This document shows positions 51,366-52,769 of a stretch of 64,000 nt of DNA, one piece after another. Source of the stretch: Escherichia coli (GTDB lineage Bacteria > Pseudomonadota > Gammaproteobacteria > Enterobacterales > Enterobacteriaceae). The position numbers and the translations under genes were made by a program. Position 1 is the stretch's first letter. Each line of letters begins with the position of its first letter. Below the pieces are notes generated by a model. That model searched no databases. It saw only the letters and a list, made by a program, of their open reading frames with translations, and was not told the DNA's origin. The stretch lies in the NCBI RefSeq assembly GCF_003018255.1, contig NZ_CP027440.1; one strand, given 5' to 3'.

Positions 51366-51449
51366 ATGAAAATTATACTCTGGGCTGTATTGATTATTTT
51401 CCTGATTGGGCTACTGGTGGTGACTGGCGTATTTAAGATGATATTTTAA
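51366..51449 (+). CDS. yohP: Small membrane peptide, 27 aa
   Basis: AAGGA RBS then ATG; encodes MKIILWAVLIIFLIGLLVVTGVFKMIF; below the ORF-track cutoff. Confidence 0.6.
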   Translation: MKIILWAVLIIFLIGLLVVTGVFKMIF

Positions 51450-51499
51450 AATTAATTAATGTCATCAGATCCGAAAATAACGAGAATATTTCAGTCTCT

Positions 51500-51770
51500 C
51501 ATCCTGTTGCGCTCCTGTCATGTGCATTGCTTCATATAATCACTGGCGCAAGGAGCGCGCAGGGGGCGGCCAATCGCCGCCGCCCCCTGCACCCCCGGGC
51601 TCTGGCGAACAAAATCGCCGCTGCGCGGTGCCCTCGGCTTATCCCTTACGGCTACCGGGTCGGGCGCGAGGTAACATCCCTGTAAAACGCGCCCTCAGCC
51701 CACATCCATGTGGGCTGCCCCGGCCTTCAGGGAACGCCTCGGCGATTTTGACGCCACCAAACAACCGTGC
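51500..51770. other. GC-rich, highly structured intergenic element with nested inverted repeats
   Basis: Perfect 12-bp stem gcagggggcggc/gccgccccctgc (51559..51590), palindrome cagcccacat/atgtgggctg (about 51697..51718), long-range pair caaaatcgccg/cggcgattttg (about 51610 and 51740); composition contrasts with the AT-rich flanks. Confidence 0.4.
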
Positions 51771-51821
51771 GGCCTATTGATAAAGAGCTAACACATTGTC
51801 AAAAAACATCACTATGGTTTC

Positions 51822-52769
51822 TTAGAGTTTCTCGATATCAATTGCCTGAATAGCCCTTGCAATATCAGGGGAATTATTCAACACCCGAACATGCTGAAAT
51901 AATTCCGTTGCTTCATCGTATTCTTTACGCAAATAACTCAACCACTGTTTAATCCGCGCAACGTGATATAACCCGGTATCGCCCTGCTTTTCCAGACGGG
52001 TATATTTTTGCAGCAAAGCAACTACCTCCGGCCACGGCATTCGCGGTTCGTTATATTTTACCACCCGGCTCAGGTTGGGAATATTGAGCGCCCCGCGACC
52101 AATCATCACTGCGTCGCATCCGCTGATCGTCATGCATTGTTGCGCACTCTGCCAGTCCCAGATTTCACCGTTGGCAATCACAGGAATATTCAACCGCTGG
52201 CGAATCTCGCCAATCGCCTGCCAGTCAATATGCTCCGCGCGGTAACCCTGCTCTTTTGTCCGCCCATGTACTACCAGCTCCGTAGCGCCAGCCTGTTGCA
52301 CCGCATCGGCGATTTCAAATTTCTTCTCACCGCTGTCCCAGCCCAGACGCACTTTTACGCTGACGGGCAAATGCGCCGGTACAGCTTCGCGCATCGCTTT
52401 TGCACCCTGATAGATGAGTTCAGGATCTTTGAGTAACGTCGCCCCACCGCCGCTACCGTTAACCGTTTTCGACGGGCAGCCGCAATTGAGATCCACGCCC
52501 CAGGAACCTAACTCGACCGCACGGGCGGCATTCTCTGCCAGCCATTGTGGGAACTGACCTAACAACTGCACGCGCACCAGCGTACCGGCTGGTGTCCGGC
52601 TGGCGTTTTGTAGCTCAGGGCAAATGCGATGAAAGACTTTTACCGGCAGCAGTTGATCCACCACGCGGACAAACTCGGTGATGCACAGATCGTAGTCGTT
52701 AACTTCGGTCAGCAATTCACGCACCAGAGAGTCGAGTACACCCTCCATCGGTGCCAGTAACACACGCAT
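51822..52769 (-). CDS. dusC: tRNA-dihydrouridine synthase C
   Basis: 315-aa ORF, N-terminus [22 protein letters not shown] (Dus-family TIM barrel). Confidence 0.9.

What the first reader, a model, noticed from the sequence alone, without database searches (positions are those of the whole stretch)
51500..51770. Unexplained GC-rich structured element between yohP and the 3' end of dusC
About 270 bp of markedly GC-rich sequence carries nested perfect inverted repeats: a 12-bp stem gcagggggcggc/gccgccccctgc, a 10-bp palindrome cagcccacat/atgtgggctg, and a long-range 11-bp pair caaaatcgccg/cggcgattttg enclosing them. It does not match the REP or ERIC consensus sequences I recognise elsewhere in the window. 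It could be a different repeat family, a miniature inverted-repeat element, or a structured RNA.
Basis: seen in the sequence. Interest (0 to 1): 0.45.

Follow-up and report, generated by a model that had tools for sequence, protein, structure and literature searches.

The report
Known replication risk sequence (RRS-dusC)
The GC-rich hairpin-filled stretch between yohP and dusC is the already published E. coli "replication risk sequence" RRS-dusC (older name TRIP1), a DNA element reported to fold up when unwound and leave a gap behind the replication fork, so it is real and remarkable but not new.

Summary

The element is not unexplained. It is RRS-dusC, one of two near-identical 222-bp "replication risk sequences" of E. 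coli (Pham et al. 2023 and 2024; Kusi-Appauh et al. 2026). Rudd listed it in 1999 as TRIP1. It carries the exact published G-quadruplex motif on the minus strand. It is 99.7% identical to the K-12 copy, whose inverted partner lies 1.3 Mb away beside lysO.

In the published model, the G-rich strand folds on the lagging-strand template, blocks the polymerase and leaves a gap of up to 2 kb. I did not test this.

What I add:
- RRS belongs to a multi-copy, mosaic repeat family across Enterobacteriaceae.
- A multi-hairpin fold of the G-rich strand is supported by covariation.
- Two hairpin loops reading ANGGAN keep A and GGA invariant. They resemble the Rfam TwoAYGGAY motif but score below threshold.
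- The G4 motif is strong only in Escherichia, Klebsiella and Pseudocitrobacter.
- RRS orientation is polymorphic in E. coli. It is reversed at dusC in 2000 of 5426 genomes, and at both loci in O157:H7.

Novelty: already known.

The parts
51503..51772 (.). Full family element: left hairpin, GC hairpin, linker, rod-like core and tail.
   Evidence: Homology between non-orthologous copies (yohP-dusC, lysO-aqpZ, putP-efeU, Klebsiella and Citrobacter loci) starts at about TTGCGCTCC and ends at about GTGCGG.
51541..51762 (.). The 222-bp near-perfect RRS repeat block.
   Evidence: In a local alignment of the two K-12 copies, the near-perfect stretch runs from CACTGGCGCAAGG to GACGCCACCAA. Its length matches the published 222 bp.
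51577..51596 (-). Published G-quadruplex-forming sequence GGGGGTGCAGGGGGCGGCGG (the RRS-G4 strand).
   Evidence: Exact match and the only one in the window; 0 expected by chance. The sequence is quoted in PMC10592627.
51509..51558 (-). Hairpin L1: stem GCGCTCCT/AGGAGCGC with a 34-nt loop.
   Evidence: pair I8. The stem is replaced by CGTTCAC/GTGAACG in Citrobacter, Enterobacter and Leclercia. Three pairs show compensatory changes.
51559..51590 (-). Hairpin L2: 12-bp perfect GC stem with an 8-nt loop. Its minus-strand 5' arm is part of the G4 motif.
   Evidence: pair I3. In the family alignment 9 of 11 predicted pairs show compensatory changes.
51610..51750 (-). Core rod: long closing stem (51610-51625 with 51735-51750 plus inner helices) enclosing two loop-conserved hairpins and one small hairpin.
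   Evidence: RNAalifold on 96 distinct copies gives 44 pairs, 21 of them compensatory. 98.5% of cells are paired, against 35-45% when the partners are slid. There is a sub-threshold Rfam TwoAYGGAY match at 51612-51751 on the minus strand, 30.2 bits against a gathering score of 43.
51696..51717 (-). Hairpin A: 10-bp stem with a six-base loop, 51704-51709, reading AUGGAU on the minus strand.
   Evidence: pair I4. Loop positions A, G, G and A are invariant in 96 copies while 5 of 6 stem pairs covary.
51662..51694 (-). Hairpin B: outer stem GGGCGCG/CGCGCCC with a six-base loop, 51676-51681, reading AGGGAU on the minus strand.
   Evidence: An IS110-family element sits in exactly this loop in strain XH992.
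51618..51628 (-). Small hairpin C: CCGC-TGC-GCGG.
   Evidence: Helix 9. 3 of its 4 pairs show compensatory changes.
51366..51449 (+). yohP, the left neighbour, which converges on the element.
51822..52769 (-). dusC, the right neighbour, after which RRS-dusC is named.

Best explanation
This is RRS-dusC, one of the two Replication Risk Sequences of E. coli. It is a DNA-level element, not a gene.

Published model. When the replisome unwinds it, the G-rich strand (the window's minus strand, which is the lagging-strand template in the K-12 arrangement) folds into a very stable structure. That structure combines a G-quadruplex motif with a series of GC-rich hairpins. The lagging-strand polymerase stops and restarts downstream. 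This leaves a post-replication ssDNA gap of up to about 2 kb that is loaded with SSB and RecA. The authors propose that these programmed gaps, placed about 650 kb either side of dif, act as topological relief valves at the edges of the Ter macrodomain.

Shown in the literature for K-12: polymerase blockage, gap formation wherever the element is moved, conditional essentiality of at least one copy, and supercoiling changes on deletion or inversion.

Shown here: that this window holds that element, and that the family conserves a multi-hairpin fold of the G-rich strand.

Inferred: that the conserved hairpin fold contributes to the block, and may matter more generally than the G4 motif.
For: Identity
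- The exact published G4 sequence lies at 51577-51596 on the minus strand (sequence).
- The element is 99.7% identical over 291 nt to K-12 2,229,111-2,229,401, beside dusC.
- The K-12 partner lies at 915,018-915,288 beside lysO. It is inverted and 94.5% identical overall, with a near-perfect block of about 222 bp. The G4 motifs sit at 915,191 (+) and 2,229,193 (-), 1.31 Mb apart.
- A third, partial copy at putP-efeU fits the TRIP1 description.

Mechanism (from the literature)
- Searches report the findings summarised in the statement above.

Support from my analysis
- Both strands fold far better than shuffles as ssDNA.
- The G-rich strand has the better family consensus fold, -56.8 against -35.0 kcal/mol, and the lower MFE in 93 of 96 copies.
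- Wobble pairs favour that strand, 82 G.U/G.T cells against 9.
- Flank GC skew of -0.032 agrees with the minus strand being the lagging-strand template.
Against: - The G4 motif is not conserved across the family. Mean maximal G4Hunter score is 1.94 in Escherichia but 1.11 in Citrobacter, 1.17 in Enterobacter and 1.21 in Silvania. In E. coli one arm of a 12-bp perfect hairpin overlaps the G4 motif.
- Orientation is not fixed in nature. The element is reversed relative to yohP and dusC in 2000 of 5426 complete genomes. It is reversed at lysO in about 1282 genomes. It is reversed at both loci in O157:H7.
- Across 80 family copies there is no orientation bias against local GC skew, 40 to 40.
- Invariant loop bases alongside covarying stems are not predicted by a pure 'fold and block' model.
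- I could not test gap formation.
Confidence: 0.9

Rival explanations
1. The element is primarily a selfish, mobile or formerly mobile structured repeat, comparable to a MITE or REPIN. The E. coli copies would be resident or domesticated members, and replication blockage a side effect of the fold. This concerns origin and does not exclude the RRS function.
For: - Multi-copy family: median 3 and up to 10 places per E. coli genome, and 13 places in one K. pneumoniae chromosome.
- Copies sit at unrelated loci in different genera.
- Both orientations occur at the same intergenic site within E. coli, with unrelated spacers.
- Long and short forms exist.
- Head-to-head dimers occur, with 257-nt arms 70% complementary and 83 nt apart.
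- Copies favour convergent gene ends: 32 convergent, 12 + 12 tandem, 3 divergent.
- Modules are swapped between copies.
Against: - The monomer has no terminal inverted repeats.
- I saw no target-site duplication, by eye only.
- No transposase is linked to it, and there is no match in phage genomes.
- The dusC and lysO sites are shared with other Escherichia species, so they are old and stable.
- I found no empty-site comparison.
- The literature reports that at least one copy is conditionally essential.
Confidence: 0.4
2. The minus strand is transcribed, for example as the dusC 3' UTR. It would form a TwoAYGGAY-like RNA whose two ANGGAN hexaloops bind a CsrA dimer, acting as a decoy or as a cis-regulator.
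For: - A full-length, sub-threshold match to Rfam TwoAYGGAY on the minus strand: 30.2 bits, E = 0.04. Other copies score 26.6-28.9 bits.
- That family shares clan CL00106 with CsrB.
- Loops read AUGGAU and AGGGAU with AC/GU closing pairs. This matches the SELEX consensus RUACARGGAUGU and the ANGGAN hexaloop described for CsrA/RsmE.
- The loop A and GGA are invariant in 96 copies while the stems covary.
- The hairpin top CACAUGGAUGUG is also present in genuine TwoAYGGAY seeds from Psychromonas.
- dusC is on the same strand and ends 50 nt upstream.
Against: - Below the Rfam gathering score of 43 bits in every copy tested.
- The simple scan finds no promoter or terminator in the element.
- Orientation relative to flanking genes is unbiased in tandem contexts, 12 to 12.
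- In 2000 E. coli genomes the element is flipped relative to dusC.
- There is no CsrA CLIP-seq peak or co-purification entry for dusC, ybjE/lysO or efeU in Potts et al. 2017.
- The stems are 10 bp or longer, whereas SELEX ligands mostly had 4 bp or fewer.
- I have no transcript data.
Confidence: 0.07
3. It acts like REP/BIME elements at the RNA level, as a 3' stem-loop barrier that stabilises or terminates the convergent yohP and dusC transcripts.
For: - It lies between two convergent genes.
- The family prefers convergent intergenic regions.
- It forms very stable hairpins on both strands.
Against: - No U-tract terminator was detected.
- In the O157-type allele dusC has its own hairpin plus T-run before the element.
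- A preference for convergent regions is equally expected for any tolerated insertion.
- The published phenotypes concern replication and topology.
Confidence: 0.1

Closest known systems
RRS (Replication Risk Sequence), also TRIP1: RRS-dusC and RRS-lysO of E. coli K-12 (Pham et al., NAR 2023, PMC10287960; Pham et al. 2023/24, PMC10592627; Kusi-Appauh et al. 2026, PMC13308219; Rudd 1999)
   Same: Same locus, the exact G4 motif, 99.7% identity, a 222-bp block, an inverted partner at lysO and a third partial copy. This is the element itself.
   Different: Nothing differs for this window's copy. My family-level results differ in emphasis from the papers: many copies in some genera, natural orientation polymorphism, and a G4 motif that is not family-wide.
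TwoAYGGAY RNA motif (Rfam RF01731, clan CL00106 with CsrB; Weinberg et al. 2010)
   Same: A long closing stem encloses two hairpins with A-N-GGA-Y loops, on the same strand. The full model length is aligned. The hairpin top CACAUGGAUGUG is shared. It is also multi-copy in its host, Psychromonas.
   Different: Scores are 27-30 bits against a gathering score of 43. The second loop in E. coli is AGGGAU, which does not fit AYGGAY. RRS is much more GC-rich and carries two extra hairpins plus the G4. RNA status is unproven for both.
REP/BIME elements and REPINs (REP doublets mobilised by RAYT transposases)
   Same: Intergenic structured repeats that favour gene 3' ends, occur in inverted pairs in some genomes, and have reported links to DNA topology (BIME-2 and gyrase).
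   Different: The unit is about 270 nt with five helices, not a 20-40 nt palindrome. There are 3-13 copies, not hundreds. No RAYT association was tested.
Neisseria gonorrhoeae pilE G4
   Same: The RRS authors cite it as the other bacterial G-quadruplex that triggers a replication-associated gap.
   Different: It is a single-locus G4 serving antigenic variation. It is not a repeat family with a conserved multi-hairpin fold.

Membership tests
RRS / TRIP1 | GC-rich repeat of about 222 bp, immediately beside dusC | tested here: met
   The 222-bp block at 51541-51762 has 68.5% GC. dusC ends at 51822.
RRS / TRIP1 | Contains 5'-GGGGGTGCAGGGGGCGGCGG-3' on one strand only | tested here: met
   Exact match at 51577-51596 on the minus strand, with no match on the plus strand.
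RRS / TRIP1 | Near-identical inverted partner beside lysO about 1.3 Mb away, plus a third partial copy | tested here: met
   Tested on K-12, because the window does not reach lysO. The G4 motifs are at 915,191 (+) and 2,229,193 (-). The partial copy is at putP-efeU.
RRS / TRIP1 | G4 strand is the lagging-strand template | tested here: met
   The arrangement is the same as in K-12. Flank GC skew is -0.032 on the plus strand. This feature is not met in the 2000 genomes carrying the inverted allele.
RRS / TRIP1 | Triggers lagging-strand ssDNA gaps with RecA and SSB loading | not testable with these tools
   Literature only.
TwoAYGGAY RNA (RF01731) | Score at or above the Rfam gathering threshold of 43 bits | tested here: not met
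   30.2 bits in the window. 28.9 and 26.6 bits in other copies. No hit at gathering level in 12 loci.
TwoAYGGAY RNA (RF01731) | Two terminal loops reading AYGGAY, closed by a long P1 | tested here: inconclusive
   Loop A is AUGGAU, which fits. Loop B is AGGGAU, which does not fit Y. Some Silvania and Leclercia copies have AUGGAU in both loops. The long closing stem is present.
CsrB/RsmB-type CsrA-binding RNA | Transcribed RNA with GGA motifs in hairpin loops that binds CsrA | tested here: inconclusive
   The motif geometry is present. A transcript is not testable here. There is no CLIP-seq peak for the neighbouring genes.
MITE | Terminal inverted repeats and target-site duplication | tested here: not met
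   The monomer ends, TTGCGCTCC and GTGCGG, are not inverted repeats, and no duplication was seen by eye. Only the dimers have long inverted arms.
BoxC / PIT triplex repeat | Three consecutive triplex-forming blocks in an element of about 56 bp | tested here: not met
   The description in PMC4666352 does not fit. A BoxC-like motif lies next to some copies in other genera but is a separate element.
REP / ERIC | A 20-40 nt REP palindrome in hundreds of copies, or the 127-bp ERIC unit | tested here: not met
   Copy number is 3-10 per genome and the unit is about 270 nt. I did not align it to REP or ERIC consensus sequences.

The most novel reading that the evidence does not exclude
RRS elements may be domesticated members of an Enterobacteriaceae-wide, mosaic, probably once-mobile structured repeat related to the TwoAYGGAY motif.

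On this reading, what the family conserves is a covarying multi-hairpin fold of the G-rich strand, not the G-quadruplex. That fold carries two ANGGAN hexaloops in which A and GGA never change. Invariant loops imply sequence-specific recognition by a trans-acting factor. Candidates are CsrA on a transcript, or a protein that binds ssDNA hairpins. The strong G4 would then be an addition specific to Escherichia, Klebsiella and Pseudocitrobacter.

The G4-on-lagging-template orientation is also not required in nature. It is reversed at dusC in 37% of E. coli genomes and at both loci in O157:H7.
Probability: 0.25. Interest if true: 0.7.

Novelty: already known. Interest (0 to 1): 0.35.

Why it matters
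As a scan result it settles the question. The "unexplained" element is RRS-dusC. It is reported to be one of only two programmed gap-forming sites in the E. coli chromosome and conditionally essential.

The family-level results matter for that young field in three ways:
- They offer natural experiments. O157:H7 has both RRS reversed. Strains of the Nissle and ST131 kind appear to have the two copies in direct rather than inverted orientation.
- They separate two candidate causes of the block. Citrobacter copies keep the hairpin fold but have only weak G4 potential.
- They raise an unaddressed question: why are two hairpin loops invariant, and why do they resemble a CsrA site?

Tried and rejected
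- **Rfam, evalue and gathering modes.** Only sub-threshold TwoAYGGAY hits appeared. An AgvB-like hit at 51472-51532 (22.9 bits against 56) and the miRNA and snoRNA hits are chance.
- **BoxC/PIT.** This is a triplex motif and a different element.
- **Stem-loop family survey PMC2267715.** This family is not listed there.
- **K-12 reference annotation.** No feature is annotated in the intergenic region.
- **Phage genomes.** No match.
- **Promoter and terminator scan.** There is nothing inside the element. The one promoter-like site, at 51465-51438 on the minus strand, is outside it and is no more than shuffles give.
- **Orientation against local GC skew.** 40 to 40, so no bias. This is a weak test, because sign calls from 5-15 kb of flank are noisy and I did not calibrate them.
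- **Orientation against flanking ORFs.** No bias in tandem contexts. The ORF calling was crude, and spurious long ORFs overlap the GC-rich element in 39 of 132 cases.
- **A 1.3-Mb inversion between the two RRS as the cause of the reversed alleles.** Rejected for the common alleles, because dusC and yohP still flank the reversed element. One strain, XH992, does show such a recombinant junction.
- **CsrA CLIP-seq supplements.** No peak for the neighbouring genes.
- **Listing every copy in one genome.** I could not do this, because the similarity search reports one place per record.

Full report
**1. Observation**

The window is E. coli. The finding lies between yohP (51366-51449, +) and the 3' end of dusC (51822-52769, -).
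- a perfect 12-bp stem at 51559-51570 and 51579-51590;
- perfect 10-bp arms at 51696-51705 and 51708-51717;
- the long-range pair, inside 16-nt arms at 51610-51625 and 51735-51750.

The stretch is 64.6% GC, against 51.1% for the window and 32-33% for its flanks. It is the most GC-rich 270-nt window in the 64 kb. Predicted folding is 5.6 to 6.6 standard deviations better than shuffles, as RNA or as DNA and on either strand.

**2. It is a repeat, not a unique spacer**

blastn against 5426 complete E. coli genomes finds the element in 5425 of them, with a median of 3 and a maximum of 10 places per genome. The other E. coli sites are the lysO-aqpZ and putP-efeU intergenic regions. Similar sequence occurs in Klebsiella, K. 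aerogenes and Citrobacter records, including 13 places in one K. pneumoniae chromosome. None occurs in phage genomes.

The genera were Citrobacter, Escherichia, Enterobacter, Leclercia, Lelliottia, Silvania, Klebsiella, Pseudocitrobacter, Trabulsiella and Raoultella. Many copies sit at contig ends, as expected of an assembly-breaking repeat.

**3. Identification**

A literature search for Rudd's 1999 intergenic-repeat paper surfaced Pham, Wood, Dunbar, Cox and Goodman (PMC10592627). That paper and its companions describe the following:
- There are two nearly perfect 222-bp GC-rich repeats near dusC and lysO. They are inverted, 1.3 Mb apart, and each about 650 kb from dif.
- They are named Replication Risk Sequences. 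Rudd had listed them in 1999 as TRIP1, with a third partial copy.
- One strand carries the G4-forming sequence GGGGGTGCAGGGGGCGGCGG and is the lagging-strand template at both loci.
- That strand blocks Pol I, II and IV in vitro and reduces Pol III-dependent M13 replication in vivo.
- The elements cause lagging-strand ssDNA gaps of up to 2 kb with RecA and SSB loading, wherever they are placed.
- At least one copy is needed, unless a 200-kb region is amplified or an inverted or relocated copy is present.
- Deleting or inverting both copies changes genome-wide supercoiling.

The window matches this description:
- It holds that exact 20-mer once, at 51577-51596 on the minus strand.
- The element is 99.7% identical to K-12 2,229,111-2,229,401.
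- The K-12 lysO copy (915,018-915,288) is inverted, with its G4 on the plus strand.
- The K-12 putP-efeU copy is an internally deleted partial copy.
- The near-perfect block between the two K-12 copies corresponds to window 51541-51762, which is 222 nt.

Identity is therefore settled. The published mechanism is the best explanation, although I could test none of its experimental steps.

**4. What the family adds: a conserved fold of the G-rich strand**

I aligned 96 distinct copies of the 150-nt core, taken as the minus strand.
- RNAalifold predicts 44 pairs, 21 of them with compensatory double changes.
- 98.5% of cells are standard pairs, against 87.8% in column shuffles and 35-45% when the partners are slid by 1-3 columns. 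Slid controls give only 2-7 pairs with double changes.
- The architecture is a long, interrupted closing stem around two hairpins, followed by a small hairpin.
- The two flanking hairpins of the left module also covary. In L2, 9 of 11 predicted pairs show double changes. The L1 stem GCGCTCC/GGAGCGC is replaced by CGTTCAC/GTGAACG in other genera.

The fold is strand-specific:
- The consensus energy is -56.8 kcal/mol for the minus strand against -35.0 for the plus strand.
- The minus strand is the more stable in 93 of 96 copies.
- Wobble pairs outnumber the C.A-type mismatches that would be wobbles on the other strand by 82 to 9.

The better-folding strand is the published G4 strand. This fits folding of ssDNA on the lagging-strand template as well as it fits RNA. 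Because copies show no orientation bias relative to genes or to GC skew, a strand-specific mutation bias is an unlikely cause of the asymmetry.

**5. The G4 is not the conserved feature**

Mean maximal G4Hunter score on the G-rich strand by genus:

| Genus | Mean score |
|---|---|
| Escherichia | 1.94 |
| Pseudocitrobacter | 1.84 |
| Klebsiella | 1.64 |
| Leclercia | 1.49 |
| Lelliottia | 1.38 |
| Silvania | 1.21 |
| Enterobacter | 1.17 |
| Citrobacter | 1.11 |

The exact E. coli motif occurs only in Escherichia and Pseudocitrobacter copies. In E. coli most of the motif is the 5' arm of the perfect 12-bp L2 hairpin, so quadruplex and hairpin would compete. I infer that the hairpin-rich fold is the ancestral polymerase obstacle and the strong G4 a later reinforcement. 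This agrees with the 2026 report that the complementary strand also blocks lagging-strand synthesis in about 66% of encounters.

**6. Invariant ANGGAN loops and the TwoAYGGAY link**

Across the 96 copies the stems of hairpins A and B covary, but the loop A and GGA never change.
- Loop A reads AUGGAU in 52 copies, AGGGAU in 30, AGGGAC in 8 and AGGGAA in 4.
- Loop B reads mostly AGGGAC, AGGGAU or AUGGAU.

Rfam's only notable match is TwoAYGGAY (RF01731). It is on the minus strand, covers the full model and scores 30.2 bits against a gathering score of 43. Other copies score 26.6-28.9 bits, and none reaches the threshold. Rfam files that family in clan CL00106, the clan of CsrB.

The loops with their AC/GU closing pairs match the CsrA SELEX consensus RUACARGGAUGU and the ANGGAN hexaloop seen in RsmE complexes. 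Genuine TwoAYGGAY seeds in Psychromonas ingrahamii are themselves multi-copy and share the hairpin top CACAUGGAUGUG.

Against a CsrA role:
- Membership fails the threshold.
- No promoter or terminator was found in the element.
- Orientation relative to genes is random.
- Potts et al. 2017 list no CsrA CLIP-seq peak or co-purification for dusC, ybjE/lysO or efeU.

The conserved loops remain unexplained by the published model.

**7. Signs of a mobile or recombining past**

Copies favour convergent gene ends and avoid divergent promoters: 32 convergent, 12 + 12 tandem and 3 divergent. In Citrobacter and Lelliottia the unit occurs as head-to-head dimers. In L080 the arms are 257 nt long, 70% complementary and 83 nt apart. 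Modules are exchanged between copies. Short forms lack about 125 bp of core between CCCCGG microhomologies.

The defining MITE features were not found, namely terminal inverted repeats on the monomer, target-site duplications and a cognate transposase. This therefore remains a rival account of origin, not a classification.

**8. Natural orientation polymorphism in E. coli**

| Locus | Arrangement | Genomes (of 5426) |
|---|---|---|
| yohP-dusC | K-12/window type | 3318 |
| yohP-dusC | reversed, with unrelated spacers | 2000 |
| lysO-aqpZ | K-12 type | 4028 |
| lysO-aqpZ | reversed, full length | 896 |
| lysO-aqpZ | reversed, short form | about 386 (1282 minus the 896) |

O157:H7 strain PV15-279 carries both reversed alleles at 100% identity. 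The gene order and strands there match K-12, so the G4 strand should be the leading-strand template at both sites. Because 2000 exceeds 1282, several hundred genomes must combine a reversed dusC copy with a K-12-type lysO copy.

The reversed dusC allele also occurs in another Escherichia species, so it is old. The RRS papers stress conservation of sequence and position. I found no mention in them of this polymorphism, of mobility or of the loops.

**9. Verdict**

Novelty is "already known". Interest is modest for the finding itself. It is raised somewhat by the family-level structure, the G4 result, the TwoAYGGAY resemblance and the orientation polymorphism, which give direct tests of the RRS model.

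Noticed in passing
L133 1440-1935; L003 1501-1957; window 51366-51900: RRS orientation is polymorphic in complete E. coli genomes. At dusC there are 3318 K-12-type and 2000 reversed genomes. At lysO there are 4028 K-12-type, 896 reversed long and about 386 reversed short. O157:H7 has both reversed.
   Followed up: partly
L135 1501-3312 (E. coli XH992): An IS110-family insertion sequence sits exactly in the loop of hairpin B, after GAGGTAACAT. The sequence beyond the IS is the RRS-lysO tail and the lysO-side flank. The junction yohP-RRS-IS-RRS-lysO is what a 1.3-Mb inversion across Ter between the two RRS would produce.
   Followed up: partly
L020, L022, L044, L050, L065, L106, L116: about 60-120 nt left of the element: A BoxC/PIT-like motif (ccctctccc...gggagaggg...ggggtgagggg) lies immediately beside many copies in Enterobacter, Leclercia and Silvania.
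   Followed up: no
L080 6994-7590; L038 10794-11402: Head-to-head dimers of the unit form giant inverted repeats of about 600 bp. The partner arm is a diverged variant with its GGA hairpins on the opposite strand.
   Followed up: partly
L107 10023-10440 (Leclercia adecarboxylata): Three matches to the right-arm pattern lie about 190-200 bp apart. This looks like a tandem array of short forms.
   Followed up: no
L132 2856-2994 (K-12 putP-efeU) versus L005 2290-2560: The third E. coli copy is an internally deleted short form in K-12 but full-length in strain 94_0962. Short forms at two loci end at CCCCGG microhomologies.
   Followed up: partly
window 51472-51532 (+): A weak Rfam match to AgvB (22.9 bits against a gathering score of 56, E = 0.2) overlaps the left edge of the element. 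It is probably chance.
   Followed up: no
L019, L060, L128, L031: Short low-coverage contigs carrying E. coli-type or Klebsiella-type RRS copies are filed under Pseudobutyrivibrio, Sporobacter and Bacillus assemblies and an unclassified Proteobacteria metagenome bin. At least the first three look like enterobacterial contamination of those assemblies.
   Followed up: no
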